DNA from: an uncultured Gammaproteobacteria bacterium
Lineage (GTDB): Bacteria > Patescibacteriota > Microgenomatia > UBA12405
Direction: 5' to 3'
NCBI GenBank assembly: GCA_964405765.1
Contig: CAYOPC010000004.1
Location: forward strand, 1 to 41,232
DNA: 41,232 nucleotides
Part shown: positions 1,815 to 32,040 of the stretch, piece by piece
How the letters are laid out: the number at the start of each line of letters is the position of its first letter
How positions within the stretch are numbered: position 1 is the stretch's first letter
The notes under the pieces: generated by a model
Told to the model about the DNA's origin: nothing
What the model saw: only the letters and a program-made list of their open reading frames with translations
Database searches by the model: none
Program-made: the position numbers and the translations under genes

Positions 1815-3620
1815 CTAGCTTTTTTTGATTTGGACCTTGGATAATTCAGAAAGCAGTTTATTATACTCTTTTTCGACGGCGGCGAGTTTGTCTTCGTCAC
1901 CATTATTTTCTAATTGGGCAATTTGACTACTAAGAAAATTTAACTTATCTTTTAGATAAAAAGTGTCAAGAATGGCGACAGTTTTTTGAATTTCTAAAAG
2001 GCGCTGGCGAGATTCAATAGGATTGACGGTGGTTTCTAAATAAATTGATTGAAAAACAGAATGAATTTCAGCCGGGAGTAAACTTTCAAATGATTTTGGG
2101 TTGAATTCGTTAATTTTTAATAAATTATTGCCAATTATTTGAAAACGATGGTCCTGAAGACGGGAAATTTGAGCGGTAATTTTTTTGGCCACTTTGACAG
2201 GATTTTTGGCACCAATAATTAAGGTTAATAAAAGTTGCTCAAATTTTTCAGTTTTGGAAGATTCGACCGGAATATTTGGTTTTGGGGTAAGGTTAAGTAG
2301 GGACCCACCAACAGCTGCCGCAGTTTTGGTGGGCAGGTTTTTTTGAGCTTCTTCAAGAATAGCCTGATAATCGGAACCGATTTCGTTGGCTAGTTTTTTG
2401 AGATAATCGGAGCGAATGACAGAATTTTTGATTTTAACTAAAAAGGGCAAAACTATATTTAAGATTTCTTTTTTACCTTTGACAGTATCAGGGTTATTTA
2501 TTTTAACTTGGGATTGGATAATAAAATCCCAGATAGAAACGGTTTGGTCGAGTTGGGTTTTGAAAAATTCTAAATCGTTTCTGACGGCTTCGTCAGGGTC
2601 TTTGTATTTGTCGCCTAAAGTGAGAACTTTAATGTCAAATTCCATAGAATCGGCAAGTTCGATACTTTTACGGGAGGCATTGGAACCGGCAAAATCAGAA
2701 TCAAGCCCCAAAATAAGAGTGTCGGTGTAACGACGAAGAAGTTGGAGTTGTTCCTCGGTAAAGGCAGTACCTTTGATGGCAACAATATTTTTAATACCGG
2801 CTTGGAAAGGAGAAATCATATCGAACTCACCTTCGGTAACAATGACAGTATTAAGTTGTCTAATAAAATCCTTGGCCAGATGGAGGCCAAAAAGATTGAA
2901 ACTTTTGTGGTAAATTTCAGTTTCAGGAGAATTGATATATTTGCCGGAGTCCTGGTTTTTGGTAGTAGGTAACATGCGACCAGAAAAACCTAAGATCCGG
3001 CCGCGATAATCGGAAAGAGGAAAAGTCAGACGACCCTGAAAACGGTCGTAAATTCGGGAATTGTATTGGCTCTGGCCAAAAGTGCCGGAAGCAATGAGAT
3101 CGGCGATCTTATAACCTTTTTTAGTTAAAAAATTAACAGTAATGGCGGGATTTTCGGGAGAATAACCCAAACCAAATTGTTTAATGGTGGTTAAATTAAT
3201 GCCCCTTTTGGTAACATAATCAAGAGCATTTTTCCCTAATGGATGAGATAAAAACATGTATTGATAAAATTTTTCAACTTGAGCATTTAGATCCATTAAA
3301 ACTTTTTTGCGGGAATCCTGCTTATTATCAAATTCGCTTTTTTTGAGAACGATACCGGCAATAGTAGCCAATTCGACTAAGGCTTCACGAAAATCAATCC
3401 GCTCATATTCCTGGACAAAAGTAAAAACATCACCGGATTTGCCGCAACCGAAACATTTAAAAATCTGAAGTTCTTCGGAGACGGTAAATGAGGGAGTCTT
3501 TTCGCCATGAAAAGGACAGCAAGCAATGTGATTGCGACCACGCTTTTTGAGAGGCAGGAAACGATTAATAACATCGACAATGTTGAGTTTTTGTTTGATT
3601 TCTTCGACCTGATTCTCCAC
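1815..3620 (-). CDS. dnaG: DNA primase DnaG
   Basis: Zinc-finger motif CPFHGEKTPSF...CFGCG and TOPRIM motif VTEGEFD. GTG start. 601 aa. Confidence 0.92.
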   Translation of the reverse strand: MENQVEEIKQKLNIVDVINRFLPLKKRGRNHIACCPFHGEKTPSFTVSEELQIFKCFGCGKSGDVFTFVQEYERIDFREALVELATIAGIVLKKSEFDNKQDSRKKVLMDLNAQVEKFYQYMFLSHPLGKNALDYVTKRGINLTTIKQFGLGYSPENPAITVNFLTKKGYKIADLIASGTFGQSQYNSRIYDRFQGRLTFPLSDYRGRILGFSGRMLPTTKNQDSGKYINSPETEIYHKSFNLFGLHLAKDFIRQLNTVIVTEGEFDMISPFQAGIKNIVAIKGTAFTEEQLQLLRRYTDTLILGLDSDFAGSNASRKSIELADSMEFDIKVLTLGDKYKDPDEAVRNDLEFFKTQLDQTVSIWDFIIQSQVKINNPDTVKGKKEILNIVLPFLVKIKNSVIRSDYLKKLANEIGSDYQAILEEAQKNLPTKTAAAVGGSLLNLTPKPNIPVESSKTEKFEQLLLTLIIGAKNPVKVAKKITAQISRLQDHRFQIIGNNLLKINEFNPKSFESLLPAEIHSVFQSIYLETTVNPIESRQRLLEIQKTVAILDTFYLKDKLNFLSSQIAQLENNGDEDKLAAVEKEYNKLLSELSKVQIKKS

Positions 3621-3633
3621 TGGCTAATTATAC

Positions 3634-3757
3634 CTCAATCTCCCCTTAATCCCCTCTTTCACAAGAGGGGAAAATAAAACCCCTCAGCCCCGACTAAAGT
3701 CGGGACAGCTCCCTCGCCTCGAATCCGAGTTGGAGCGGGCATTGAAAAATAGAGGGC
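3634..3757 (+). repeat. two abutting palindromic repeat units (type A + type B with nested hairpin)
   Basis: CAATCTCCCC..CCCCTCTTTCACAAGAGGGGAAAA, followed by AAACCCCTCAGCCCCGACTAAAGTCGGGACAGCTCCCT[CGCCTCGAATCCGAG..]. Nearly the same string recurs at 21936..22017. Confidence 0.85.
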
Positions 3758-3773
3758 TTTAAGACAATAATTA

Positions 3774-4085
3774 TTGGTGAAGATTACTTTCTTTAATTCT
3801 GATATTGATAAATTTATTCAAAGCCTAAATAAATCGACTTATTCAAAAGTACTTCGCCACCTTAAACTTTTAGAAACTTACGGTCCTCGGTTAACCATGC
3901 CATATTCTAAACCAATATCGCGCAATTTATTTGAACTTCGAAGCAGAGGTAATCAAGAAATTCGTTTGTTTTATTGCTTCTATAAAAATCAAATTGTGAT
4001 TTTGCATGGCTTTATTAAAAAATCTCAAAAAACGCCATCAAGAGAAATTAATTTAGCTTTACAAAGAATTTCCAATTTGCCATAA
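3774..4085 (+). CDS. type II toxin, RelE/ParE superfamily (HigB-like / phage Gp49-like)
   Basis: 103 aa. The pattern LELLETYGP...LFELR...EIRLFYCF..NQIVILHGFIKKSQKTP..EI matches the Gp49/HigB-like killer family. TTG or GTG start. The toxin gene precedes the HTH gene, as in hig-type modules. Confidence 0.8.
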   Translation: MVKITFFNSDIDKFIQSLNKSTYSKVLRHLKLLETYGPRLTMPYSKPISRNLFELRSRGNQEIRLFYCFYKNQIVILHGFIKKSQKTPSREINLALQRISNLP

Positions 4086-4110
4086 TATAACATATATGTT
4101 ATAAATAATT

Positions 4111-4401
4111 ATGAATAATAAATTTAATCCAACTTCATTCAAAGACTTTTTTGACAAGTCCATGAAGGATCCAGAAATTAAGGCTGGATACGATCGTCTT
4201 GGTCCAGAGTATGAAATCATCAATGCTTTAATCAAAAAAAGAATTGCCAAAAAAATTTCTCAAAAGGATTTGGCGACCAAAATAGGAACCAAACAATCAG
4301 CTCTTTCCCGTTTAGAATCCGGCACTTACAACCCGTCACTTATCTTTCTGAAAAAAGTTGCGGCTGCTCTCGATTGTCAATTACACATCACTTTAAAATA
4401 A
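4111..4401 (+). CDS. XRE-family helix-turn-helix antitoxin (HigA-like)
   Basis: 96 aa. HTH core ISQKDLATKIGTKQSALSRLESG. Lies 25 nt downstream of the toxin gene. Confidence 0.78.
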   Translation: MNNKFNPTSFKDFFDKSMKDPEIKAGYDRLGPEYEIINALIKKRIAKKISQKDLATKIGTKQSALSRLESGTYNPSLIFLKKVAAALDCQLHITLK

Positions 4402-4412
4402 ATCTTTGAATC

Positions 4413-7423: not shown

Positions 7424-7798
7424 ATGCCAGAAAATAGAGAACGATTAGTTGCTCAAGAAACAATTAGAGAACAATCAAAAAATCACGAAGTATCGGTGGT
7501 AATGACGGATTTGCAAAAAGAAAGAGATATACTAATTCCCCGAGAAGTTAAAAATTGGATGCAAAAAGTGGAAGAAGATCCGATCTTGAAACAAAATAAT
7601 CAAAAAATTAATGGCGATGATGATTCAGTATTACAACCAATAGCCAAAACAGTAACAAAAATAACCTTACCTAGCGATAAAAAAATATTTACCGGGGGAT
7701 TTTCTAAACCGGTAGATAATGCCTGGAGATGGTTGTCAGAATTTATTCTTAGAGTTATCAAAAAAAATGAAGGTAAGGTAAAATTTAAAGAGGAATGA
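7424..7798 (+). CDS. hypothetical protein, translationally coupled to the downstream ATPase
   Basis: 124-aa ORF. Its stop overlaps the next start (ATGA at 7795..7798). No motif recognised. Confidence 0.5.
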   Translation: MPENRERLVAQETIREQSKNHEVSVVMTDLQKERDILIPREVKNWMQKVEEDPILKQNNQKINGDDDSVLQPIAKTVTKITLPSDKKIFTGGFSKPVDNAWRWLSEFILRVIKKNEGKVKFKEE

Positions 7799-10128
7799 AC
7801 GAGTCTATATTAATGGGTTATGTAAATACTTTAGTATCGGTTTTAGTACTGACGGTATTAATTAGCGGTTTATTGTTTTTGATTTTTTGGGGATTAATAA
7901 TGTGGTTTAAATGGAAAGATAGAGAAGAAAAATCTTTAAAACAGGTGAATTTGTTGGTGGCAGTACCTCAAGATAATGAAGTAAAGATTGACGCTATGGA
8001 ACAGATTTTGAATTCGTTTGGAAGTATGTATAAGAATGCTAAAGTAAAAATTTGGCAATTATTTATGAGTCAACCAAATGCTTCGTTGGAGATTATTGGA
8101 ACTGACGAAGATATTAAATTTTATGTGTCAGTACCAGAGAAATATCAGGATTTAATTGAGAAACAAATTTACAGTGTCTATGCCGGAGCCGACATTAAAG
8201 TAGTAGAAGAACCCAATATTTATACTAAAGACGGAGCGGTGGAATATGCCTGGTTAGGACTAAAAAAACTTCCCCATTATCCGTTGAAAAGCTACAAAGA
8301 AATTTCGACTGATCCATTGGCAGCGATAACTTCGGCTTTGTCAAAACTTAATAAAGATGAAACTGTGGCGATACAGTTAGTAATAACACCAACAGATGGT
8401 TCGTGGTCAAAAATAGGTAAGAGTTTTATCAGCAGCACCAAAAAAAGCGAGTCAAATCCGGAAAAGGCATCTTATAAGGTAGATGCTAAACAACTAGAAG
8501 GAATTGAGCAAAAATGCGGTAAGACAGGTTTAGAAACGGTAGTCAGGATTGTGGCGGTGGCACCAAATAAAGAAATTGCTAAAATGAATATTTCGAATAT
8601 TAAAGCCTGTTTTGGGCAATTTGAATCACCGTGGAATAAATTTAGCAGTAAGAAAATTTACTTAAAATCGATGTTTATGGATGATTTTATTTATAAATAT
8701 CCGGTAATGTTTTGGGTTAAACACAAAACAATTTTGTCGGTAGATGAGTTAGCGTCGATTTTTCATTTGCCAAACAAACAGATAGTGACGCCAAATATTT
8801 ATTGGCTGAAAGCTAAAAAAGCCCCAGCACCAGTAGATTCACCACAAGAGGGGTTGTATGTGGGAGATAATTTGTACCGAGGTGTAACTAAAAAGTTTTG
8901 TATGACACTGACTGATAGACAAAGGCACTTTTATATAGTCGGACAAACCGGTGTGGGTAAATCGTGGTTACTAGCAGATATGGCGTTGCAGGATATTAAA
9001 GCCGGTAAAGGAGTGTGTTTTATTGATCCGCATGATACTTTTGAAAGTATACTGGAAAGAATTCCCCCGGAAAGAGTGGATGATGTGATTTATTTTGATC
9101 CATCACAAACCGAGCGGCCGATGGGTTTTAATGTGATGGAGTGCGAACGGGAAGACCAAAAAGATTTCGTGACCTCGTCAATTATTAACTTAATGTACAA
9201 ACTATATGATCCTTATAAAACCGGTATCGTCGGCCCTAGATTTGAACATGCTATCAGGAATATTATGTTGACAGTAATGACAGAGCCGGGAGCAACTTTT
9301 ATTGAAATTGTCCGTTGTTTGACAGATCAAAGTTACGTTCAGGAAATTTTACCAAAAGTAAAAGATCCGATGGTCAGGCGTTATTGGACAGATCAAATTG
9401 CTCAAACAAGTGACTTTCATAAATCAGAAGTGCTGGATTATATCGTGTCGAAATTCGGTCGGTTTATTACTAACACAATGATGAGAAATATTATCGGTCA
9501 GAGTACATCTTCGTTTAACTTCCGCCAGGCGATGGACGAGGGGAAAATTTTAATCATTAATTTGGCTAAGGGAACTATCGGTGAGGAAAATTCAGCCTTC
9601 TTGGGTTTGGTGTTGATTCCTAAAATTCTGATTGCGGCGATGAGCCGTCAGGATATCCCAGAAGACAAACGAAGAGATTTTTATTTATATGTAGACGAAT
9701 TCCAAAATTTTGCGACTCAAGACTTTGCTGTGATTTTATCAGAAGCCAGAAAGTATCATTTGAATTTGACGGTGGCTAACCAATTTATTTCTCAAATGGA
9801 TGATGAGGTTAAAAATGCGGTGTTCGGAAATGTAGGGACAATTTGCAGTTTTAGATTGGGTATTTCGGACGCTGGATTTTTGACCAAGCAGTTCCAGCCA
9901 GAATTTGGAGAACATGATTTACTCAACTTGGGAACCGGAGAAATTTATTTAAAAACTATGGTGAATGGAATACCAAAAGATCCATTTTCTTTGAAAGTGG
10001 CAGCAATAGAAAAGAAAAAGCCAGGTAACCCAAAAATGGCGGAAGCAATTAAAAGATTGTCAGCACTAAAATACGGTAGGCCGAGATCGATTGTAGAAGC
10101 GGAAATAGCACAGAGAGCGAGATTATAA
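7795..10128 (+). CDS. VirD4/TraG/TraD-like coupling-protein-type P-loop ATPase with N-terminal membrane anchor
   Basis: N-terminal TM helix. Walker A is HFYIVGQTGVGKSW and Walker B is FYLYVDEFQNF. The following LSEARKYHLNLTVANQ segment is typical of the TraD/VirD4/HerA-like family. Confidence 0.7.
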   Translation: MNESILMGYVNTLVSVLVLTVLISGLLFLIFWGLIMWFKWKDREEKSLKQVNLLVAVPQDNEVKIDAMEQILNSFGSMYKNAKVKIWQLFMSQPNASLEIIGTDEDIKFYVSVPEKYQDLIEKQIYSVYAGADIKVVEEPNIYTKDGAVEYAWLGLKKLPHYPLKSYKEISTDPLAAITSALSKLNKDETVAIQLVITPTDGSWSKIGKSFISSTKKSESNPEKASYKVDAKQLEGIEQKCGKTGLETVVRIVAVAPNKEIAKMNISNIKACFGQFESPWNKFSSKKIYLKSMFMDDFIYKYPVMFWVKHKTILSVDELASIFHLPNKQIVTPNIYWLKAKKAPAPVDSPQEGLYVGDNLYRGVTKKFCMTLTDRQRHFYIVGQTGVGKSWLLADMALQDIKAGKGVCFIDPHDTFESILERIPPERVDDVIYFDPSQTERPMGFNVMECEREDQKDFVTSSIINLMYKLYDPYKTGIVGPRFEHAIRNIMLTVMTEPGATFIEIVRCLTDQSYVQEILPKVKDPMVRRYWTDQIAQTSDFHKSEVLDYIVSKFGRFITNTMMRNIIGQSTSSFNFRQAMDEGKILIINLAKGTIGEENSAFLGLVLIPKILIAAMSRQDIPEDKRRDFYLYVDEFQNFATQDFAVILSEARKYHLNLTVANQFISQMDDEVKNAVFGNVGTICSFRLGISDAGFLTKQFQPEFGEHDLLNLGTGEIYLKTMVNGIPKDPFSLKVAAIEKKKPGNPKMAEAIKRLSALKYGRPRSIVEAEIAQRARL

Positions 10129-10197: not shown

Positions 10198-10219
10198 TTA
10201 ATTAATCACGTAATTATTT

Positions 10220-11086
10220 TTATAATTCTTTGAGTTTGATACCGCGGGCTTCGTCTTTGGCTTCGATTAATTCAAGGTATTTTTCGGTAGTAGAAATACG
10301 TTTGTGACCGACGACTTGAGAGACAACATCAATAGGAACACCGGATTTGAGTTGAAAGACAATAAAAGTGTTACGTAAGTCGTTAACTTTGATGTCTTTA
10401 AGATCAGCTTTATTAAAAAACCGATTTAAAAGACTTCTGATATTTCTGGCTAATAAAGTTTTGCCGGTTTTGGTAACAAAAACATTTTTTGAGCGGCCAG
10501 GATAGCGGCCTTCGGCTAAGTATTTTTGGAGGGCAAGTTTAGCAGAATTGTTTAACGGGACGTTTCTAGACGGATGGCTCTCATAACTTTCAATAAAAAT
10601 ATCGTTATCTTTGATATTGTCTAATTTTAAGTTTTCGATTTCTTTGATACGAAGTCCGGCCTGAAGCATAAGTTCAACGATAGCAGTAGCCCGAGTGTCA
10701 TTACGGCAGGCATCACGAAGTGAACGGTATTCAATTGGTTTTAAGATTTTTGGAGTATCATTTTCATATTTGGGATGTTTAACTTCAGTTGACGGATCAA
10801 TTTCAATTAAGGCTTCATTTTTTAAGAAAGAAAAAAAATTCTTAATAGAATTAAGCTTACGGGAAATTGATTTGGCAGTATAGTCGTTTTTAGCTAAATC
10901 TTCCTTGAAATCGTTAATATGTTCCGGAGTAATGAGATTAATATCTCCTACTCCTCTGGCTGACAAAAAAGCAAACAATTGGTTGATATCACCCTTGTAG
11001 GCTACAATAGTATTAGTGGACTTGCCTTTCTGGGTAAGCGCCTGAGTGAAGGTATTTAATGAACTATTGAAAGATAAATCAGCCAT
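10220..11086 (-). CDS. tyrosine recombinase, XerC/XerD family
   Basis: N-terminal SAM-like domain (NTIVAYKGDINQLFAFL). Catalytic region has AGLRIKEI and VVGHKRISTTEKYLEL (the R..H-x-x-R..Y pattern). Confidence 0.85.
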   Translation of the reverse strand: MADLSFNSSLNTFTQALTQKGKSTNTIVAYKGDINQLFAFLSARGVGDINLITPEHINDFKEDLAKNDYTAKSISRKLNSIKNFFSFLKNEALIEIDPSTEVKHPKYENDTPKILKPIEYRSLRDACRNDTRATAIVELMLQAGLRIKEIENLKLDNIKDNDIFIESYESHPSRNVPLNNSAKLALQKYLAEGRYPGRSKNVFVTKTGKTLLARNIRSLLNRFFNKADLKDIKVNDLRNTFIVFQLKSGVPIDVVSQVVGHKRISTTEKYLELIEAKDEARGIKLKEL

Positions 11087-11144
11087 GGTTATAGATATTT
11101 AAAACGACTTATAATAACATAAATTAGGACAATTTACAAATACT

Positions 11145-11504
11145 ATGAAAAGAATAAAGAATTCAGTATTATTAATACTGTCAATAATTATCCTAATATC
11201 AACAATTTTTAATGTTATAAACCAGTATAACACCCTGAAAAGAGCCAAGAAAAAAAATGAGGAACTTAGGGTAAGTCTGGAAAAAATGGAAACCAAAAAA
11301 CAACAATTAATTAAAAAAATAGAATATGCGACGACCAGTGCTTATATAGACCAACAAAAGAGGGAATTGTTGGCTTTGGGGACAGAGGGAGATGTATGGT
11401 TGGATTTGCCTAAAAATGAAGAGAAAATGGAATATAAACCAGAGATAAATGAGACAACAACAGAAACAAATTGGGAAAAGTGGATAAAACTGTTTACTGA
11501 TTAA
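11145..11504 (+). CDS. FtsB/DivIC-like septum-formation protein (single TM + coiled coil)
   Basis: 119 aa. An N-terminal TM helix is followed by a heptad-rich segment (KKKNEELRVSLEKMETKKQQLIKKIEY). The call rests on architecture only. Confidence 0.4.
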   Translation: MKRIKNSVLLILSIIILISTIFNVINQYNTLKRAKKKNEELRVSLEKMETKKQQLIKKIEYATTSAYIDQQKRELLALGTEGDVWLDLPKNEEKMEYKPEINETTTETNWEKWIKLFTD

Positions 11505-11570
11505 AAAACTTGTGCTAAACTTCCACCACTGAAGTCACCTAAACTTAGTTTGAGGTGGACTTAGGCAACA

Positions 11571-11640
11571 TGCGGGGTAGTGTACGGCTGCACGTGAGGC
11601 TCATAATCTCACAGACCTGGTTCAACTCTAGGCCCCGCAA
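11571..11640 (+). tRNA. tRNA with anticodon CAT (Met or Ile2)
   Basis: Hand fold: acceptor TGCGGGG/CCCCGCA, D arm GTGT-ACGGCT-GCAC, anticodon arm TGAGG-CTCATAA-TCTCA, T arm CCTGG-TTCAACT-CTAGG, discriminator A. The D loop is short and no CCA is encoded. Confidence 0.6.
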
Positions 11641-11650
11641 CAAACAAAGA

Positions 11651-11678
11651 GGTCGTCATTAGTTTGACGGCTTTTTTG
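11651..11678 (+). terminator. rho-independent terminator after the tRNA
   Basis: GGTCGTCA-TTAGTT-TGACGGCT followed by TTTTTTG. Confidence 0.55.
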
Positions 11679-11704
11679 TTGAAAAATATTTTCAGAAGGC
11701 ATAT

Positions 11705-11732
11705 TTGACTATGCCCGATATATAGGTATAAT
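11705..11732 (+). promoter_or_regulatory. near-consensus sigma-70 promoter at the left edge of the islet
   Basis: TTGACT, 16 nt, TATAAT. Confidence 0.5.
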
Positions 11733-11790
11733 ACACCAGATAATACTATGTTACTCGATATAAGTATTATGAAATTAAGCACTTTAAAAT

Positions 11791-11847
11791 CTAGAAGGGA
11801 TGTATTTGGGTCATAAATTAAAAATGATTTAAATACATCCTTTCTAG
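11791..11847 (+). repeat. 17-nt inverted repeat (long hairpin) in the islet 5' leader
   Basis: CTAGAAGGGATGTATTT ... AAATACATCCTTTCTAG with one mismatch and a 23-nt spacer, immediately upstream of the AAGGAGG ribosome-binding site. Confidence 0.7.
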
Positions 11848-11877
11848 GAAAGGAATACTTTGAAAGGAGGGAAAGCG

Positions 11878-12159
11878 GTGGAAAGTTGGATAAGATTTGC
11901 CCAACCAACCTTGATTCCAGCGGTGGAATGGGTGCTGGCGGTACTTTTGCTGACAGTGGTAGCGGTGGTGATAGCAAAAAATTGTACTGACGATAGGCTG
12001 ATTAAGAGACGAATAATCTTAATCGGTACGGCTATCATCTGTATAATTATTGTGACTACTGCCGTGAGGCTGATTGAAGCATGGATAACCAACTCTACTG
12101 GCCGAACGACAATTGACACTCAATCAATCAACTACGACCGGTTTTCGCCAGAAAAATAG
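11878..12159 (+). CDS. small two-TM membrane protein
   Basis: GTG start 6 nt after AAGGAGGG, and two hydrophobic helices. GC-rich codon usage matches the following gene. The tracked ORF starts at a TTG at 11860. Confidence 0.5.
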   Translation: MESWIRFAQPTLIPAVEWVLAVLLLTVVAVVIAKNCTDDRLIKRRIILIGTAIICIIIVTTAVRLIEAWITNSTGRTTIDTQSINYDRFSPEK

Positions 12160-12183
12160 GAAAATAGAGAGAGGTATAAGGCA

Positions 12184-13137
12184 ATGAAGAAGTGGAAATC
12201 ATTCCTGGTTCTGGTCCTGACGGTGGTGATTGTTCTGGCGATGACAGCCTGTAGTGTCGGTAACTATGTGAACATTCCTTCCGGATACGTGGGAAAAATT
12301 CTGAGACCGACCGGTTGGGACGAGGATTGGTTGACGGCGGGTCAGGTTGATCTGGGAATTGCCAATAATAATGGTAGTTACAATCAGCTTGTCTTGCTAC
12401 AGACTACCAGCGAGACTTATCTGGAGGCATTTGGTTCGATCGGGAGTTTTACTGATGGTCAGGATCATAGGATTTTGACACAGGACGGTGTGCCCTGTGA
12501 AGTCAACGTGACACTGAGAATGATTGTTCCTGAGGATAACGATTCCCGGGATGCAATTTTGGCTCAGGTGAGTCCGAAGCAGCTTTACAGCAACCTATCT
12601 ACAGTTACCGGTATAACCGTTTCGGATATCTATTTGAAATTCGCCCAATCGGAGGTAAGAAGCGTAATTCGAGCAACTTTGGCAATGTACGAAAGCTACA
12701 ATGCCATTTATGCCGATTACGCCAATGTTTCTGATAAGTTGGGTGAGAAAATCGGTGTGATATTCGATAAGGCTGGCGTGCCATTGAAGCTAATGCAGGT
12801 GGCTCTGTCGAATGTGAAACCTGACGAGACAGTGTGGTCGGCAAAGAATCAAAACGCAGCGGCGGCATCACAAGTATCGACCATCCAAGAGGTTGGTAAG
12901 GCAATAGAGGCCAACCCGGGATATCTGGAGTACATGAAGTGGCAATATCTTAAGGATATTGCTCAGACAGGAACTAATGTAACTATCGTTATCGGTGATA
13001 GTGGTGACAGCAACAATGCAGCGAATGACTTTGCGGCAGCGCAATATGTCATTGATAAACTGGAGGAGAGACTTCAGTTGCGCCAACCTCAGCCCCTGCT
13101 GAACAATCAAAGTAAGACATCTAGGGCTCTGGGGTGA
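12184..13137 (+). CDS. SPFH/band-7-like lipoprotein
   Basis: Signal peptide with a lipobox-like LAMTAC. The mature part begins NIPSGYVGKIL.., like SPFH-domain N-termini. It has a central alpha/beta segment and an Ala/Gln-rich helical tail (NQNAAAASQVSTIQEVGKAIEANPGYLEY). Confidence 0.55.
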   Translation: MKKWKSFLVLVLTVVIVLAMTACSVGNYVNIPSGYVGKILRPTGWDEDWLTAGQVDLGIANNNGSYNQLVLLQTTSETYLEAFGSIGSFTDGQDHRILTQDGVPCEVNVTLRMIVPEDNDSRDAILAQVSPKQLYSNLSTVTGITVSDIYLKFAQSEVRSVIRATLAMYESYNAIYADYANVSDKLGEKIGVIFDKAGVPLKLMQVALSNVKPDETVWSAKNQNAAAASQVSTIQEVGKAIEANPGYLEYMKWQYLKDIAQTGTNVTIVIGDSGDSNNAANDFAAAQYVIDKLEERLQLRQPQPLLNNQSKTSRALG

Positions 13138-13214
13138 GAGTATGTGGAAACACAAACTCTTTACCCGGGGCCCTAATTAATTAAAATATTGGTATAATTT
13201 CTGGTACAAATCAA

Positions 13215-13288
13215 GGCAGGGTAGCTCAGCTGGTTAGAGCGTAGCATTCATAACGCTAAGGTCGCGGGTTCGAGCCCCGCCCCTGCTA
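13215..13288 (+). tRNA. tRNA with anticodon CAT (Met or Ile2)
   Basis: Cloverleaf GGCAGGG-TA-GCTC-AGCTGGTTA-GAGC-G-TAGCA-TTCATAA-CGCTA-AGGTC-GCGGG-TTCGAGC-CCCGC-CCCTGCT-A. There is one A:C mismatch at 31:39, and a TATAAT box at 13193. Confidence 0.8.
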
Positions 13289-13293
13289 CACAT

Positions 13294-13328
13294 TAGATAT
13301 TAGATGATAGATCTTAGATCGTAGAAAA
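13294..13328 (+). repeat. five tandem heptads TAGATNN
   Basis: TAGATAT TAGATGA TAGATCT TAGATCG TAGAAAA, lying between two tRNA genes. Confidence 0.7.
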
Positions 13329-13337
13329 TTAAAATAA

Positions 13338-13391
13338 GGGTATGTAGCTCAGTTGGTTAGAGCAGTCCGAAATTTCGGACGAGTCCATGGT
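13338..13391 (+). pseudogene. 5' portion of a tRNA-like gene (acceptor 5' strand to T-stem 5' strand), truncated
   Basis: GGGTATG-TA-GCTC-AGTTGGTTA-GAGC-A-GTCCGAAATTTCGGAC-GAGTC-CATGG, then unrelated sequence. There is no matching 3' acceptor strand until 13552..13558. Confidence 0.6.
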
Positions 13392-13423
13392 TATATTAAG
13401 ATATATGGATACTTTAAAAATTT

Positions 13424-13497
13424 GGATGCATAGCTCAGTTGGTTAGAGCACCGATCTTATAAGTCGGGGGTCCATGGTCCGAGTCCATGTGCATCCA
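13424..13497 (+). tRNA. tRNA-Ile (anticodon TAT)
   Basis: Cloverleaf GGATGCA-TA-GCTC-AGTTGGTTA-GAGC-A-CCGAT-CTTATAA-GTCGG-GGGTC-CATGG-TCCGAGT-CCATG-TGCATCC-A. Confidence 0.8.
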
Positions 13498-13502
13498 CAA
13501 AA

Positions 13503-13559
13503 TGGTTAGAGCAGTCCGAAATTTCGGACGAGTCCATGGTCTGAGTCCATGCATACCCA
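13503..13559 (+). pseudogene. 3' portion of the same tRNA-like gene (D-loop to 3' end), lacking a 5' acceptor strand
   Basis: Repeats 38 nt of 13354..13391 exactly, then continues CTGAGT-CCATG-CATACCC-A. That supplies the T loop, T stem and an acceptor strand complementary to GGGTATG at 13338. Confidence 0.6.
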
Positions 13560-13719
13560 CCCGTGGTACTGAAAAATATTTTGCTTGTAAATATATCCCC
13601 CTCTTTCATTCGATCAAGGAAATCTACTATTATCTTGAATTAAGCAGGGTCAACAGGTCTGGAGTCTCCGCCAGAAGCGGACAGGCATGCATGCCCACAA
13701 AAAAATTAGTATCTAATAT

Positions 13720-14139
13720 TTAGATTGCTAAGAGAACGAAGCCACCGGTCATGAGAATTCCAGCTATAATGGTTTTCCAAGTAAAAGTTTCGTGGAAGAA
13801 AAATACTCCTAGTATGGCTGAAAATAGGGGATAAAATAATGTCATAAGAGAAGCCAAAGTTAGTGATGGAGCCTTTTGAAAGCCATAAATATATAAAAAT
13901 TCGGCAACAACTAACCAAATAAAAGCACACAGAATAAAAGGCCAGATATTTTTGAAGGTGAATTGACCGATGGTATTTTTGAAGCCGATAAATAAAATCG
14001 GCAGAAAAATTAAACCGCTAATGACCGCCATTAAGCTACTAACGAGTAATGGATTGTAGTTGTTTAAAAATTTTCTGATTAAAACTCCACCAAAAGCATA
14101 AGCTATCTGAGCAAATATAATTAAAATTAGTCCAAACAT
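13720..14139 (-). CDS. EamA/DMT-family small membrane transporter (single EamA domain)
   Basis: 139 aa with 4-5 TM helices. The N-terminus LIIFAQIAYAFGGVLIRKFL is typical of EamA domains. Confidence 0.6.
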   Translation of the reverse strand: MFGLILIIFAQIAYAFGGVLIRKFLNNYNPLLVSSLMAVISGLIFLPILFIGFKNTIGQFTFKNIWPFILCAFIWLVVAEFLYIYGFQKAPSLTLASLMTLFYPLFSAILGVFFFHETFTWKTIIAGILMTGGFVLLAI

Positions 14140-14143
14140 AGGT

Positions 14144-15154
14144 TTATTTTAATATTCCCATAGCAGTAAGGACGTCGTCGAGGGTGGTTTGGGCCTCGAG
14201 AGCAGCTTTTTTGCTTCCCTCTTCGATAATACTGTCGATAATATCGAATTTACCTTCATATTGAGCGCGTCGCTCACGAATTGGAGTTAAAAATTTGTTA
14301 ATGGCTAAAGCTAGCTTGGTTTTGACTTCGACATCACCTACTTGACCAATCAAATAACGCTTCTTAAGATCATCAACTTCGGCTTGGTTATCATTGAAAG
14401 CATCGTGATAAATAAAAACCGGATTACCTTCGACATGACCTGGATCGGTGGGTTTGAGATGGGTGGGGTCGGTATACATACCTTTAACCTTTTTATTAAC
14501 AGTCTCCTCATCATCAGAAAGATAAATACAGTTACCAATAGATTTGCTCATTTTAGCCTGGCCATCAGTACCAATTAAAGTGCCGCCGTCACCAATCAGG
14601 GCTTTGGGTACAGGGAAAACTTCACCATAAAGTTTGTTGAAATCACGGGCAATTTCGCGGGTAACTTCGACGTGACTTTCCTGATCTTTACCGACGGGAA
14701 CTAAATTAGCTTTGACCATAAGAATATCGGCAGCCTGAAGAACCGGGTAGTTTAATAGTCCTAAAGACGGCTGTTCGATGTGAAGATCATGCATAATATC
14801 TTTGAGCGTCGGAACCCGTTGAGCTCGGGGAACAGTGACTAAATTAGTGAATATGGTGGAAAGATAAGTAACTTGTGGAACACGACTTTGCTGATAAATA
14901 ACACATTTGGCCGGGTCAATGCCAACAGAAAGGTAATCAAGGACTAATCCCCTAACCCGGTCGCGAATAGTGGAAGTACGTTCTTGGGAAAAATTGGTAG
15001 TTAAAGTATGAAGATCGGCTATAATAAAAAAACAGTCGAATTCATCCTGAAGTTTAACCCGATTTTTGAGGCTGCCAATGTAGTGGCCTAAATGAAGCGG
15101 ACCGGTTGGCCGGTCACCGGTAAGAATGCGAGGTTTTTGATTTGTTTGAGTCAT
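14144..15154 (-). CDS. trpS: tryptophan--tRNA ligase
   Basis: Class I motifs TGPLHLGHYIG (HIGH) and KMSKS, with TrpRS-like size (336 aa) and sequence. Confidence 0.92.
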   Translation of the reverse strand: MTQTNQKPRILTGDRPTGPLHLGHYIGSLKNRVKLQDEFDCFFIIADLHTLTTNFSQERTSTIRDRVRGLVLDYLSVGIDPAKCVIYQQSRVPQVTYLSTIFTNLVTVPRAQRVPTLKDIMHDLHIEQPSLGLLNYPVLQAADILMVKANLVPVGKDQESHVEVTREIARDFNKLYGEVFPVPKALIGDGGTLIGTDGQAKMSKSIGNCIYLSDDEETVNKKVKGMYTDPTHLKPTDPGHVEGNPVFIYHDAFNDNQAEVDDLKKRYLIGQVGDVEVKTKLALAINKFLTPIRERRAQYEGKFDIIDSIIEEGSKKAALEAQTTLDDVLTAMGILK

Positions 15155-15267
15155 AAGTTTATTGATAGTTAAATTTTAACATTAAGAAAAAAGATTACTC
15201 CGATAAATCGGAGTTTGATAAATAGGCAAAATTTCTTCGTCTTTAACTTGAAATTTAGTCCTATTTA

Positions 15268-29851: not shown

Positions 29852-29882
29852 TTTTTATTAATGGTTGCTGTATACTCGTATC

Positions 29883-30593
29883 ATGGCATCAATAGATAAT
29901 TTGCTCGTCTCTTTGCTAGTAGATGAGGTGGTCGGGGGTTTTATAGTAACAGTACCCCCAGGTCATGTAGGGTGTATTTATAGTGTTTTTAGGGGGGTGT
30001 TAAAAAATGTCTGGCATCCGGGGATGCATTTTAAGGTACCAATAATTCATCGGGTAAAACTTTTTAATGCTCAGCTGATTGAATATACGGTAGCCAAGGA
30101 TATTATACTGAAAGATAATAAAGAGATCATGGGTGATGAAGTGATTAATGCGGTAACTTCGGATAATAAGTTTGTAGCCGTGGAAGCAACAGTTTTGATT
30201 AAATTAGATACCGAGAGATTGCCGGAGATTTGGCAAAATATTGGAGAAAATTTTGTGTCGAAAGTGGTCCGACCAGTAACTAGAAGCCGAATTAGAAAAG
30301 TATTGACTAATCATACTTTAATGAATGCTTTGTCGACTGACAGAAGTTTGATTGAAGAAGAAGTAACTAATGAGTTGAGAGAATCTTTGTCGGGTCACGG
30401 TTTGAATGTGGAAAATTTTTATTTGAGTTCCTTGACCCCGATTGAAGGCTGGCAAATAACTGATGGTGATTTGCCCAAGGCAATGGAGGTTGAAGTGATT
30501 CAGCCAAAAACGGCCGAACAGATTAAAAGCGAAAGATTGTTTACTAACCAGCCAGAGTCAGGTACCAACAACGACTTAGGCCATAGGATGTAA
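29883..30593 (+). CDS. SPFH/prohibitin-family protein
   Basis: VPPGHVGCIYSVFRGVLKNVWHPGMHFKVPIIHRV is the typical SPFH N-terminus. The start may be the ATG at 29883 or the TTG at 29865. Confidence 0.75.
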   Translation: MASIDNLLVSLLVDEVVGGFIVTVPPGHVGCIYSVFRGVLKNVWHPGMHFKVPIIHRVKLFNAQLIEYTVAKDIILKDNKEIMGDEVINAVTSDNKFVAVEATVLIKLDTERLPEIWQNIGENFVSKVVRPVTRSRIRKVLTNHTLMNALSTDRSLIEEEVTNELRESLSGHGLNVENFYLSSLTPIEGWQITDGDLPKAMEVEVIQPKTAEQIKSERLFTNQPESGTNNDLGHRM

Positions 30594-31577: not shown

Positions 31578-32035
31578 GGAGATGTATTGCATCGACGGAG
31601 CATGAACTTTAAAAAACGGCAAGCCGACTTTGATCCATTGAGTCGTTTCGTCCATAGGACGATCAGCCTCTGGCTGAAAACAGGGTTAAAACAAAAAATG
31701 CTAAAGAAAAACTTAGCAAGTTAGCTACCGATTTCACTGCCTATTTAGGTAAGGTTGCCGGTACTTCTTATCAACCAGCTTTGGCTGTTTGCTAAGAGAC
31801 TCATCACTTAGTTTTCTGTTTCGAGGGGAATTGGGTGGTGTAAATTAAATCGAAATGCAATCTCGATCTTCTCGGTTAGATCGTGGATTAAAGCGAGGGG
31901 TAATGCCCTCAACAATCGACATCCCGACACATTTTATGAATTTCTGTCGTCGGGAGTGTAGGTCAAAATTCTTTAAGCTTGTAGATGTTTTTTTGAGTCT
32001 GCTTTCGGACCCGGGTTCGTTACCTGGCATCTCCG
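31578..32035 (+). ncRNA. ssrA: tmRNA (SsrA)-like RNA
   Basis: 5' GGAGATG pairs with 3' CATCTCC. The 5' box GCATCGACGGAG resembles the tmRNA GGATTCGACGGG box. T arm is CCGGG-TTCGTTA-CCTGG. An internal frame ends ..YQPALAVC-TAA (stop at 31793..31795). smpB lies 4.2 kb away. Confidence 0.72.
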
Positions 32036-32040
32036 CCTTC

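What the first reader, a model, noticed from the sequence alone, without database searches (positions are those of the whole stretch)
11681..13190. GC-rich two-gene islet (small membrane protein + SPFH lipoprotein) wedged between tRNA genes
Composition jumps inside the islet. Hand counts give 26/60 and 31/60 G+C there, against 18/60 in a typical flanking line. Codon choice also changes (CTG, GCG, GGT-rich). The islet has its own near-consensus promoter (TTGACT-16-TATAAT), a 17-nt inverted repeat in the leader and a strong AAGGAGG site. It lies between tRNA(CAT) and the tRNA cluster that carries duplicated tRNA fragments, and a Xer-type recombinase sits 0.6 kb to the left. A native low-GC SPFH paralog exists at 29883..30593. 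This looks like a recently acquired cargo module from a higher-GC donor, possibly the host of an episymbiont.
Basis: partly seen in the sequence, partly recalled or inferred. Interest (0 to 1): 0.6.

Follow-up and report, generated by a model that had tools for sequence, protein, structure and literature searches.

The report
Acquired SPFH membrane cassette between tRNAs
A 1.5-kb, self-contained two-gene cassette (a tiny membrane protein plus a lipid-anchored SPFH scaffold protein) was horizontally inserted into a variable slot between two tRNA genes of a very small bacterial genome, and its few relatives sit in other ultra-small bacteria and in large phages.

Summary
Window 11681-13188 is a compositional outlier: GC 0.463 against 0.365 for the genome, and the 5th most atypical codon usage of 547 ORFs. 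It carries its own promoter, a structured leader, two genes and an end hairpin.

None of 37 same-genus genomes has it, although their flanks are syntenic. Two show a clean empty site. Others hold different cargo in the same slot, so this is an insertion hot spot.

Contigs from three independent studies bridge both junctions at flank-level depth, so the join is not chimeric.

The genes are a 93-aa two-helix membrane protein of no known family and a 317-aa SPFH protein. The SPFH protein has a confident HflK/C-prohibitin-like fold and a lipoprotein-type signal. The pair is conserved in all 16 related loci that could be judged, including a 642-kb phage record and a 156-kb viral contig.

The family is rare and usually GC-richer than its surroundings. 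In 5 of 7 long cellular contexts it lies within about 1 kb of a tRNA or rRNA gene.

Acquisition is well supported. A host-bacterium donor and a role for the Xer recombinase are not supported. Function is inferred: an extracytoplasmic SPFH scaffold with a dedicated membrane partner.

The parts
11571..11641 (+). tRNA-Met(CAT) no. 1, native left flank
   Evidence: ARAGORN and Rfam tRNA at 45 bits. 88-100% identical over 11567/11570-11643/11692 in the sibling loci compared.
11650..11680 (+). Native hairpin plus T-run after tRNA-Met no. 1. Last native bases before the insert.
   Evidence: The sequence ...GAGGTCGTCATTA(G/A)TTTGACGGCTTTTTTGT is shared by the window and by seven of the eight sibling loci aligned, with 1-2 changes in some; the eighth (L031) has a diverged but recognisable version. 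Homology to siblings ends at 11679-11692.
11681..13188 (.). The inserted islet (about 1508 bp; each boundary uncertain by about 10 nt)
   Evidence: In G004 (L028) and G047 (L010), window 11679 and window 13189 are 6 bp apart. None of the matches listed falls inside (133 further matches were not listed). The family profile finds 0 of 37 siblings.
11705..11732 (+). Cassette promoter TTGACT-16-TATAAT
   Evidence: 11 of 12 consensus matches, the best site in 11000-13800. Function inferred.
11791..11847 (+). Conserved leader hairpin (24-nt arms, 9-nt loop)
   Evidence: leader z -7.4. The same element is in the leaders of L032 and L002. Its lower stem is kept in sequence, apart from G-U wobble changes at 2 of its 10 pairs, and 9 of 27 pairs change on both sides. 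No Rfam family reaches threshold.
11864..11870 (+). Shine-Dalgarno AAGGAGG for the small ORF
   Evidence: Read. Lies 7 nt before GTG 11878.
11878..12159 (+). Small membrane protein, 93 aa. Two hydrophobic helices and a conserved C-terminal N-x3-R-x2-I-D motif.
   Evidence: The ORF listing ORF runs 11860-12159. The GTG 11878 start is inferred from the SD and from the aligned N-termini of relatives. N72, R76, I79 and D80 are invariant in 14 sequences. No Pfam, PADLOC, PHROG or NCBIfam family.
12184..13137 (+). SPFH/Band-7 protein, 317 aa, with a lipoprotein-type signal (Cys23)
   Evidence: Band_7 at 26 bits against a cut-off of 23.6. AlphaFold2 pLDDT 90.6. Top PDB matches are prohibitin, HflK/C, stomatin, erlin and QmcA. 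C23 is at least 90% conserved in 55 sequences. phrog_200 'lipoprotein' at 4.9e-9.
13122..13175 (+). GC-rich end hairpin overlapping the stop codon (probable terminator or stabiliser)
   Evidence: -39.9 kcal/mol, z -7.3. No T-run follows, so the terminator role is inferred only.
13186..13198 (+). Native extended -10 (TGGTATAAT) of tRNA-Met no. 2. First native bases after the insert.
   Evidence: Aligned to ...ATATATTTGGTATAAT... of the empty sites. It is 12 of 13 identical to the cassette's own -10 region at 11720-11732 (family D2).
13215..13289 (+). tRNA-Met(CAT) no. 2, native right flank
   Evidence: 98% identical to G004 over 13189-13290.
29865..30593 (+). Native SPFH paralog (comparison gene, not part of the islet)
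   Evidence: Band_7 at 94.9 bits. Present in 34 of 37 siblings at 80-97% identity. No significant similarity to the islet protein by BLASTP (E 0.11).

Best explanation
Window 11681-13188 is a horizontally acquired, self-contained expression cassette. It sits in a genus-wide hypervariable slot between the terminator of one tRNA-Met gene and the promoter of the next. It brought its own promoter, a conserved structured leader RNA, two co-oriented genes 24 nt apart and an end hairpin.

The genes encode (i) a 93-aa two-helix membrane protein and (ii) a 317-aa SPFH protein. By the positive-inside rule, the short N-terminus and the conserved C-terminal tail of the small protein face outward. The SPFH protein is anchored as a lipoprotein on the outer face of the cytoplasmic membrane.

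Inferred mechanism: like HflK/C, prohibitin or erlin, the SPFH protein oligomerises into a membrane-attached ring or cage on the extracytoplasmic side. The small protein is its dedicated membrane partner, an analogue of NfeD in SPFH-NfeD operons but not a homologue. The outward tail of the partner would contact the SPFH domain.

The cassette belongs to a rare family that moves between ultra-small bacteria and large phages. Its physiological role is not shown. It may be envelope stabilisation, or exclusion at the cell surface.

Shown: foreign composition, absence from siblings, empty sites, hot-spot status, real junctions, SPFH fold, and conservation of the gene pair and of the leader hairpin.

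Inferred: lipidation, topology, oligomer formation, partner contact, role, and the route of entry (probably recombination through the conserved flanks after an unknown first insertion).
For: Composition.

Absence from relatives: 0 of 37 genus genomes with the family profile and 0 of 40 relatives with the protein. No listed DNA match falls inside the islet, while the flanks match in all 37.

Empty sites: 6 bp separate the flanks in G004 and G047.

Hot spot. The same slot holds other cargo:
- a 383-390-aa zinc-ribbon membrane protein in G007, G001 and G024;
- a 230-aa HTH protein in G052 and G051, broken into two ORFs in G048;
- a 280-aa hydrolase-like protein in G002;
- short hairpin-rich inserts in others.

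Real join: single contigs span 11632-13250, 11632-13244 and 11632-13174 in runs of three studies. Depth in the islet equals that of the flanks: 10.9 against 10.3 and 11.4; 52.2 against 50.1 and 58.9; 5.6 against 3.7 and 6.4. The stretch is held at half of its words or more in 17 runs; the 20 holders come from 8 studies.

Protein identity. Lgt and LspA genes are present in the genome.

Gene pair: the small partner was found in 16 of 16 distinct related loci with enough flank. It lies directly upstream in 14, is separated by one ORF in L046, and lies downstream in L041.

Mobility of the family:
- 5 word-index homologues among 5.8 billion clusters;
- 248 representatives at E of 1e-3 or better among 1.84 billion;
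- 5 loci in 185,579 species genomes;
- only one other genome, with two weak partial matches (E 6.4e-8 and 1.5e-6), among the 400 other phylum genomes sampled;
- copies in a 156-kb viral contig and in the 642-kb phage record LR756502.1.

The leader hairpin travels with the cassette.
Against: - No recombinase, terminal inverted repeat or convincing target-site duplication marks the ends. There is only an AT-rich AAAATATT at both ends and a 12-of-13 match between the cassette's -10 region and the native -10 region. The insertion mechanism is therefore unknown.
- No donor was identified. The nearest relatives are 59%, 52% and 49% identical.
- The family's GC excess over its flanks in 15 of 17 loci could partly reflect selection on the gene itself rather than recency of transfer.
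- The lipobox of the window protein (M-T-A-C) has an unusual -3 residue. Lipidation is inferred from the conserved Cys only.
- Nothing here shows oligomerisation, partner contact or any phenotype.
- No PADLOC model matches.
- In the tree, the window's clade is separate from the clade holding three of the four phage-like copies. A direct phage origin is therefore not shown.
Confidence: 0.8

Rival explanations
1. Remnant or 'moron' of a phage: the cassette entered with a phage of this bacterium, and everything but the two genes has since been deleted.
For: The same gene pair occurs in a 156-kb IMG/VR contig (L007) and in the 642-kb phage record LR756502.1. It also occurs in two phage-like metagenome contigs, L041 and L046. 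In L041 and L007 no other ORF has a homologue in this genome. PHROG 200 matches. The cassette is a self-contained unit with its own promoter and end hairpin, as morons are (established knowledge).
Against: There is no other phage gene, integrase or att-like repeat at the site. The window's protein groups at 100/99 support with copies from L032 and L002, whose flanks with homologues in this genome or with rRNA/tRNA genes (shown for L002's duplicate L036) look cellular rather than phage-like. It does not group with the clade holding L007, L041 and L046.
Confidence: 0.15
2. Ancestral gene pair lost in all other sampled species of the genus (differential loss rather than gain).
For: The slot is unstable and turns over cargo in many species. 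Many of the sibling assemblies are incomplete (71-99% complete).
Against: It needs many independent precise losses. 0 of 37 siblings have the family, while 34 of 37 keep the native paralog found by the same method. Codon usage and GC3 are far from those of native genes. The two closest relatives by DNA identity have clean empty sites.
Confidence: 0.05
3. The donor is the host bacterium on which this presumed episymbiont lives.
For: The cassette is GC-richer than the recipient. Two related loci sit in MAGs labelled Gammaproteobacteria (L002, L004).
Against: L004 shows the same ORF products as L003, which is binned as Saccharibacteria, over the about 4.7 kb (7 ORFs) listed for both. The labels are therefore unreliable. 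L002-type contigs have GC near 0.40-0.43 and the cassette is an outlier there too. The scan of one genome for each of 185,579 species returned only 5 loci, three of them labelled CPR/Patescibacteria. No relative above 59% identity exists in the protein collections searched.
Confidence: 0.05
4. Assembly or binning artefact: a foreign fragment joined in silico between two tRNA genes.
For: tRNA genes are repeats shared by many organisms and break assemblies. The contigs in all runs fragment at the tRNAs.
Against: Independent assemblies from three studies each give one contig that runs from 49 nt left of the left junction, through the whole islet, and in two of them (X1, X5) on into tRNA-Met no. 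2; the third (X9) ends at 13174, inside the islet. X1 and X9 show 0 differences and X5 shows one 1-nt insertion. Depth matches the flanks.
Confidence: 0.02

Closest known systems
HflK/C, prohibitin, erlin, stomatin and QmcA (SPFH/Band-7 cage-forming membrane scaffolds)
   Same: Pfam Band_7 hit above the cut-off. The predicted fold has an N-terminal membrane anchor, an alpha/beta SPFH domain and long helices. Foldseek probability is 1.00 to 8rrh, 7vhq, 9cz2, 9z7u, 9vvg and 8z5g. The bulk of the protein faces away from the cytoplasm, as in HflK/C and prohibitin (orientation of those proteins recalled, not from a call).
   Different: Sequence identity to solved members is only 11-17%. The Band_7 score of 26 bits is barely above the cut-off. 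No similarity to the genome's own Band-7 protein is detectable by BLASTP. The anchor is a lipoprotein-type signal with a conserved Cys rather than a transmembrane helix (inferred). No FtsH-type client is known. Oligomer state is untested.
SPFH-NfeD operons (for example QmcA-YbbJ, PDB 8z5g)
   Same: A small membrane protein is encoded next to, and in the same direction as, an SPFH gene. This pairing is conserved in 16 of 16 judged loci. The operon concept is named in the reference list of PMC9872710 (passages seen) and in the title of 8z5g.
   Different: The partner has no NfeD (or any other) Pfam domain at E of 0.01 or better. It has only about 30 residues after its second helix, too short for the NfeD C-terminal beta-barrel (size of that domain recalled). 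Both it and the SPFH domain are predicted to face outward.
Phage-encoded SPFH/Band-7 proteins (PHROG 200 'lipoprotein'; jumbo-phage SPFH proteins)
   Same: phrog_200 matches at 4.9e-9, and down to 1.4e-19 for relatives. Fold matches include SPFH proteins of Vibrio phage pVa5, Rhizobium phage Pasto and others. The function of such proteins in phages is described as poorly understood in PMC7760394 (passages seen).
   Different: Only one record in the 50,697-record phage collection matches by tblastn, at 37% identity. The conserved small partner and the leader hairpin are not described in the passages I saw.
tRNA-adjacent genomic islands and integration hot spots
   Same: Atypical composition, position next to tRNA genes, and absence from relatives, in a slot that holds different cargo in different species. 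Genomic islands and gene transfer, mostly among Patescibacteria, are reported in PMC12455944 (abstract and passages seen).
   Different: The islet is only 1.5 kb. It has no integrase, no tRNA-derived direct repeat at its ends and no mobility gene. The nearby tyrosine recombinase is a conserved core gene.

Membership tests
SPFH / Band 7 superfamily (PF01145) | Profile match above the curated cut-off | tested here: met
   26.0 bits against a cut-off of 23.6, residues 31-229. Marginal.
SPFH / Band 7 superfamily (PF01145) | SPFH alpha/beta domain followed by long coiled-coil helices, as in solved members | tested here: met
   AlphaFold2 pLDDT 90.6. 62 PDB chains match at E of 1e-3 or better; the top ones are prohibitin, HflK/C, stomatin, erlin, QmcA and flotillin.
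SPFH / Band 7 superfamily (PF01145) | Large homo- or hetero-oligomeric ring or cage on a membrane | not testable with these tools
   No oligomer prediction was run. Inferred from the fold only.
SPFH-NfeD operon | Partner carries an NfeD domain | tested here: not met
   0 Pfam families for the small protein at E of 0.01 or better. Only spurious transmembrane hits in NCBIfam.
SPFH-NfeD operon | Small membrane protein gene conserved next to the SPFH gene | tested here: met
   16 of 16 distinct loci with enough flank. The HMM was seeded from 7 of them, so those match by construction. The window copy scores E 1.9e-6 and L046 only E 0.0028.
Bacterial lipoprotein | Signal peptide ending in a lipobox with an invariant Cys; Lgt and LspA available | tested here: inconclusive
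   Cys23 is at least 90% conserved in 55 sequences, at the end of a hydrophobic stretch. Lgt (144.6 bits) and LspA (41.5 bits) genes are present. The window's lipobox M-T-A-C is atypical at -3. No signal-peptide predictor was available.
tRNA-associated integrative genomic island | Own integrase and att direct repeats derived from the tRNA | tested here: not met
   No recombinase lies within 11681-13188. No tRNA-derived repeat lies at the ends. The adjacent tyrosine recombinase is conserved in siblings without the islet.
tRNA-associated integrative genomic island | Atypical composition, absence from close relatives, tRNA adjacency | tested here: met
Integron gene cassette | Promoterless ORF with an attC hairpin at its 3' end, next to an integron integrase | tested here: not met
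   The cassette has its own 11-of-12 promoter. The conserved hairpin is in the 5' leader, 110 nt inside the left boundary. No attC model was run.
Known anti-phage defence systems (PADLOC-DB 2.0) | Match to a defence-system protein model | tested here: not met
   0 families for the two window proteins and three relatives at E of 0.1 or better.
Known cis-regulatory RNA (Rfam 15) | Leader reaches a family's gathering score | tested here: not met
   The best hit is 22.9 bits against a gathering score of 65 (a generic hairpin match to a miRNA model).

The most novel reading that the evidence does not exclude
The cassette is a promiscuous, recombinase-free 'membrane cage' module: an SPFH lipoprotein, a dedicated two-helix partner and a conserved leader RNA switch. 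It is exchanged between large phages and ultra-small (CPR-type) bacteria and settles preferentially beside stable-RNA genes. Its job would be to remodel or shield the outer face of the cell membrane, for example to exclude superinfecting phages or to protect the contact zone of an episymbiont. This would be a previously undescribed class of SPFH two-component system with its own riboregulator.
Probability: 0.12. Interest if true: 0.7.

Novelty: new variant of a known kind. Interest (0 to 1): 0.42.

Why it matters
It is a clean case of very small-scale gene gain in a streamlined, uncultured bacterium. One 1.5-kb expression-ready cassette has base-level boundaries, empty sites, alternative cargo in the same slot, and population-level confirmation. 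The case shows that such genomes have insertion hot spots between tRNA genes that work without an island-borne recombinase.

It also defines a rare SPFH sub-family with an obligatory, unannotated small partner and a conserved leader hairpin, shared with large phages. SPFH proteins of phages have no assigned function, according to the passages seen in PMC7760394. A two-gene unit that can be expressed in a laboratory host would make that question testable.

Tried and rejected
- Complex prediction on SPFH residues 24-300 (alignment A2) with the small protein (alignment A4) gave 'no answer' (score 0.00). This counts neither for nor against binding.
- RNA evidence. One metatranscriptome run (X18) gave a single 212-nt contig on 12321-12532 with 0 differences, and nothing else inside the islet. 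DNA can be present in such libraries and contigs cannot show transcript ends. I do not count this as proof of expression, nor the uncovered parts as silence.
- rRNA as an explanation for the other GC-rich regions of the genome: no SSU or LSU rRNA gene is in the assembly.
- Translational selection as the cause of high GC3: the six housekeeping-type ORFs checked (RpoB, RpoC, DnaK, RplB, GAPDH, SecY) have GC3 0.27-0.33.
- attC or integron reading, IS or MITE ends, and target-site duplication: nothing convincing.
- I did not test for a dif-like site, so a Xer-exploiting element is not excluded.
- Taxonomic naming of the window's genome was not possible.
- Supplementary files of papers were not requested. 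Table S6 of PMC9872710 and the supplements of PMC12455944 might bear on the distribution of prophage SPFH genes and of islands.
- The adjacency to stable-RNA genes (5 of 7 long cellular contexts within about 1 kb) was not tested against a proper null. My chance expectation of about 12-15% is a rough estimate, not a tool result.
Full report
**What was checked first**

The 500-bp GC profile rises to 0.45-0.47 across 12000-13250. The windows wholly to the left of the islet read roughly 0.30-0.37. To the right the profile falls to 0.35-0.38 only beyond the tRNA cluster.

Against the whole 763,871-bp, 86-contig assembly laid in the script box, these figures hold:
- The ORF block 11860-13137 has GC 0.463. 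The mean for windows of that size is 0.364 with sd 0.032, which gives z 3.06. Only 0.4% of 6581 windows are as high, and this is the fifth highest region in the genome.
- The 317-codon ORF has GC3 0.508 against a mean of 0.329, rank 9 of 692 long ORFs.
- Its synonymous codon choice is the fifth most atypical of 547 ORFs of at least 150 aa (z -3.76).
- Six housekeeping-type ORFs, picked by motifs I recalled for DnaK, RpoB, RpoC, RplB, GAPDH and SecY, have GC3 0.27-0.33. Selection for expression therefore does not explain the shift.
- The tetranucleotide distance is less extreme: z 2.53, with 50 of 2082 windows at least as deviant.

The regulatory elements and neighbours are also as reported, with one correction:
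- The promoter TTGACT-16-TATAAT at 11705-11732 matches 11 of 12 positions and is the best site in the 2.8 kb scanned.
- The leader inverted repeat is longer than reported, with 24-nt arms at 11791-11814 and 11824-11847. The 148-nt leader folds far better than shuffles (z -7.4).
- AAGGAGG at 11864-11870 precedes an in-frame GTG at 11878. I take this GTG as the true start of the small ORF, because it aligns with the N-termini of relatives.
- tRNA(CAT) 11571-11641, tRNA(CAT) 13215-13289 and tRNA-Ile(TAT) 13424-13498 flank the islet.
- A tyrosine-recombinase ORF at 10220-11086 lies 595 bp to the left.
- A second Band-7 gene lies at 29865-30593.

**Presence and absence**

Protein and profile searches:
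- The 317-aa protein found no match in 24 same-genus and 16 same-order genomes.
- A 55-sequence family profile found none in all 37 genus genomes held.
- As a control, the native Band-7 paralog was found in 34 of the same 37 at 80-97% identity.

DNA search with window 10200-15200:
- All 37 siblings match the flanks: the recombinase, the DivIC-like ORF, both tRNA-Met genes, tRNA-Ile, the EamA-type ORF and the TrpRS-like ORF.
- None of the listed matches covers window 11693-13174. A further 133 matches were not listed.

Local BLAST of 20 fetched sibling loci placed the ends of homology at 11679-11692 and 13175-13189.

In G004 (L028) and G047 (L010), window positions 11679 and 13189 are 6 bp apart. 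The empty site reads ...GGCTTTTTTGT-ATATAT-TTGGTATAAT..., that is, the terminator of the first tRNA followed directly by the extended -10 of the second.

**A hot spot, not a unique event**

The same slot is variable across the genus. Gap sizes can be read, and the inserts themselves. The slot states seen are:
- near-empty in G004, G047, G014, G023 and G042;
- hairpin-rich inserts of 60-260 bp in several others;
- a 735-bp insert (GC 0.25) in G052 and G051, encoding a 230-aa protein with a resolvase-type HTH (HTH_7 at 25.3 bits). It is broken into two ORFs in G048. A gap of the same size is seen in G049.
- a 907-bp insert (GC 0.28) in G002, encoding a 280-aa hydrolase-like protein;
- a 1.43-1.50-kb insert (GC 0.34-0.39) in G007, G001 and G024. 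It has its own promoter-like site and encodes a 383-390-aa zinc-ribbon membrane protein.

The SPFH cassette is thus one of at least four alternative cargoes of a slot bounded by conserved genes. The recombinase to the left is part of the conserved flank in genomes without the islet. It is therefore not island-associated.

**Not an assembly artefact**

The 2.3-kb stretch is held at half of its sampled words or more in 17 public runs. These come from bioreactor, wastewater and anaerobic-digester metagenomes dated 2019-2025, and the 20 holders come from 8 studies.

In three DNA runs from three studies, one contig each runs from 11632 to 13250, 13244 and 13174. X1 and X9 show 0 differences; X5 shows one inserted T behind 13080. 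All three bridge the left junction with 49 nt on the native side. The first two also reach into the right-hand tRNA.

Word depth of the islet contig equals that of the flanking contigs:

| Run | Left flank | Islet | Right flank |
|---|---|---|---|
| X1 | 10.3 | 10.9 | 11.4 |
| X5 | 50.1 | 52.2 | 58.9 |
| X9 | 3.7 | 5.6 | 6.4 |

The inserted T in X5 changes the C-terminal tail. It fits the 310-aa, 97%-identical protein P0001.

**The two proteins**

The 317-aa protein:
- It hits Pfam Band_7 just above the cut-off, at 26.0 bits against 23.6.
- With a 55-row alignment, AlphaFold2 gives pLDDT 90.6. The model has an N-terminal helix, an alpha/beta domain and long helices at 215-261 and 276-299.
- Foldseek's best PDB matches are the human prohibitin complex, HflK/C, stomatin, erlin1/2, QmcA-YbbJ and flotillin, all with probability 1.00 at 11-17% identity. 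Viral SPFH proteins match likewise.
- BLASTP sees no similarity to the genome's own Band-7 protein (E 0.11).
- A Cys at position 23, at the end of the hydrophobic N-terminus, is conserved in at least 90% of 55 family members.
- PHROG 200, named 'lipoprotein', matches.
- The genome encodes Lgt and LspA.

I therefore read it as a lipoprotein whose SPFH domain lies outside the cytoplasmic membrane. This is an inference, because no signal-peptide predictor was available and the window's lipobox is atypical at -3.

The 93-aa protein:
- It matches no Pfam, PADLOC, PHROG or NCBIfam family.
- It has two hydrophobic helices separated by a Lys/Arg-rich loop.
- Its C-terminal tail has N72, R76, I79 and D80 invariant in 14 sequences.
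- By the positive-inside rule the tail faces outward, on the same side as the SPFH domain (inference).

**The family and its contexts**

The family is rare:
- 5 word-index homologues (97, 59, 52, 42 and 39% identity) among 5.8 billion clusters;
- 248 representatives at E of 1e-3 or better, 67 of them at 1e-30 or better, among 1.84 billion;
- 5 loci in a scan of one genome for each of 185,579 species;
- only one other genome, with two weak partial matches (E 6.4e-8 and 1.5e-6), among the 400 other phylum genomes sampled.

The named records are MAGs labelled Parcubacteria, Saccharibacteria and Patescibacteria, plus two labelled Gammaproteobacteria. L004, one of the latter, shows the same ORF products as the Saccharibacteria-labelled L003 over the about 4.7 kb (7 ORFs) listed for both.

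Copies also lie in four phage or phage-like contexts:
- a 156,609-bp IMG/VR contig (L007);
- the 642,428-bp record LR756502.1, 'uncultured phage';
- two phage-like metagenome contigs, L041 and L046. L046 has a tRNA cluster; L041 has HEARO RNAs and an IscB-like ORF.

The small partner is present in 16 of 16 distinct loci with enough flank. It lies directly upstream in 14, is separated by one ORF in L046, and lies downstream in L041. L040 lacks upstream sequence.

In 15 of 17 distinct loci the SPFH gene is GC-richer than its surroundings, and in 9 of them by at least 0.05:

| Locus | SPFH gene GC | Flank GC |
|---|---|---|
| L032 | 0.459 | 0.321 |
| L037 | 0.540 | 0.403 |
| L042 | 0.555 | 0.427 |
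| L048 (the 642-kb phage record) | 0.366 | 0.301 |

The exceptions are L006 and L047.

In a maximum-likelihood tree of 40 rows, the window groups as follows:
- with P0002 at 100/98 support;
- then with L032 at 99/94;
- then with L002 and P0007 at 100/99;
- then with L037.

L007, L041 and L046 form a separate clade (99/95), and the huge-phage copy lies elsewhere.

Flanking genes of L037 and L036 are 24-52% identical to this genome's genes. The SPFH proteins are 50.6% and 51.4% identical, above all four other matching flank ORFs of L037 and comparable to the best-matching flank ORF of L036. No donor can be named.

**Neighbourhood of stable-RNA genes**

Seven distinct cellular contexts have several kb of flank. 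In five of them the cassette lies within about 1 kb of a tRNA or rRNA gene:
- the window, directly between tRNAs;
- L036, with tRNA-Ala 582 nt and 23S rRNA 955 nt downstream;
- L043, with 16S rRNA 640 nt downstream;
- L037, with 5S rRNA about 1 kb upstream;
- L044, with tRNA-Lys about 220 nt upstream.

L003 and L006 are the exceptions. In the phage-like L046, a tRNA-Ile(TAT) starts 8 nt after the stop codon. The RNA genes differ from case to case, so these are separate placements. I did not compute a formal null, so this remains an observation.

**The leader**

The three members of the window's clade for which DNA is held (window, L032, L002) share a leader hairpin:
- The lower stem (AGAAAGGATG / CATCCTTTCT) is kept in sequence, apart from G-U wobble changes at 2 of its 10 pairs.
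- The upper stem differs in sequence but stays paired.
- 9 of 27 predicted pairs change on both sides.

Three sequences are few, but the pattern is that of a selected RNA structure that travels with the cassette. No Rfam family reaches its threshold.

The 3' arm contains CCUUUCU, which could pair with the downstream AAAGGAGG. A role in translational control or mRNA stability is speculation.

A second strong hairpin at 13122-13175 (-39.9 kcal/mol, z -7.3) overlaps the stop codon and ends 13 nt before the right boundary.

**How it most likely works**

Shown:
- The unit is a complete transcription unit of foreign composition.
- It sits in a hot spot and is fixed in the population sampled.

Inferred from the fold, and from what is established for HflK/C, prohibitin, erlin, stomatin and QmcA-YbbJ (titles; mechanisms recalled):
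- The lipoprotein forms a ring or cage on the outer face of the membrane.
- The two-helix protein, always encoded with it, is its membrane partner, analogous to NfeD but not homologous to it.

What the cage does is open. Occurrence in large phages and in accessory slots of small genomes suggests a conditionally useful surface function, such as envelope stabilisation or exclusion of incoming phage or DNA. No PADLOC model supports a defence role, and the complex prediction gave no verdict.

The route of entry is unknown. No recombinase, inverted ends or clear duplication exist. Exchange through the conserved flanks after a first illegitimate insertion is the simplest reading. The hot-spot concept is recalled from the literature, not from a call.

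**Comparison with what is known**

Gene transfer and genomic islands in Patescibacteria, mostly among themselves, are documented in PMC12455944 (abstract and passages seen). SPFH genes in phages are known but unexplained (PMC7760394, passages). A prophage-borne HflK/C-like protein has been studied in Pasteurella (PMC9872710, abstract and passages).

My searches of the paper library found nothing on three points (terms: SPFH, phage, lipoprotein; Patescibacteria, horizontal gene transfer, GC content, genomic island):
- this sub-family;
- its obligatory small partner;
- its leader hairpin.

Two searches cannot show absence from print.

**Verdict**

This is a real and cleanly delimited acquisition. 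The host-donor and Xer ideas are not supported. The module is a new variant of the SPFH-plus-partner theme, of moderate interest.

Noticed in passing
window 13339-13392 and 13505-13570 (around tRNA-Ile(TAT) 13424-13498): Two pieces of a second tRNA-like gene flank the intact tRNA-Ile(TAT) and share a 37-nt direct repeat. Their acceptor arms (GGGTATG / CATACCC) are those of the single tRNA-Ile(TAT) of sibling genomes. Their anticodon arm is replaced by a perfect 16-nt palindrome (GTCCGAAATTTCGGAC). The intact gene here has a different acceptor stem. This looks like a rearranged or duplicated tRNA locus. G050 shares part of the arrangement.
   Followed up: partly
sibling loci L012, L016, L029, L030, L031 (the slot homologous to window 11681/13188): Short (60-260 bp) unrelated inserts rich in G/C-stem hairpins (for example CTCCCTTAAAAAGGGAG) fill the same intergenic slot in several species. 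In G020, G003, G009 and G005 the tRNA genes to the right are inverted.
   Followed up: partly
L023 3090-4262 (G007), L025 (G001), L022 (G024); L009 93-785 (G052); L024 224-1066 minus strand (G002): Alternative cargo genes sit in the same slot. They are a 383-390-aa protein with N-terminal zinc ribbons and one transmembrane segment, a 230-aa HTH_7 protein (broken into two ORFs in G048), and a 280-aa GxSxG hydrolase-like protein.
   Followed up: partly
G000 contigs C23:4725-5486, C28:2610-3206 and 3494-4183, C42:3899-4480, C19:6398-7318: Other ORFs have GC3 0.46-0.70 and codon usage as atypical as, or more atypical than, the islet's. They include a zinc-ribbon membrane protein, a TasA/camelysin-like secreted protein (my reading of the sequence) and a Pro/Thr-rich surface protein. 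The C19 ORF may be spurious. The C23 region is only patchily conserved in siblings.
   Followed up: partly
G000:C23 about 4355-4410, with copies on C7, C10, C17, C27, C33 and C45 and in many sibling genomes: A dispersed repeat of about 45 nt, 83-94% identical, turned up as a by-product of the DNA search. Its nature is unknown.
   Followed up: no
window 13080: Run X5 carries an extra T behind 13080 in its islet contig. This shifts the C-terminal tail of the SPFH protein and fits the 310-aa variant P0001. The tail appears dispensable or variable.
   Followed up: partly
L041 62-283 and 6148-6367: Two HEARO (IscB-associated) RNAs lie in the phage-like contig that carries a related cassette. One starts 15 nt after the small partner gene and is followed by an ORF with an IscB-like N-terminus (my reading).
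   Followed up: no
L043 11501-13429: The 16S rRNA gene of the Parcubacteria-type contig is 1929 nt long. It contains a 130-aa ORF that resembles the four-helix-bundle proteins of rRNA intervening sequences (my reading). The 23S rRNA in L037 is also matched in pieces.
   Followed up: no
window 7795-10128: A 777-aa membrane ATPase with HerA/DUF87 and weak TraG/TrwB coupling-protein matches lies upstream of the recombinase. I did not check its conservation in siblings.
   Followed up: no
window 31578-32038; whole assembly: A tmRNA gene is present (67.3 bits). No SSU or LSU rRNA gene is present in the 86-contig assembly.
   Followed up: no
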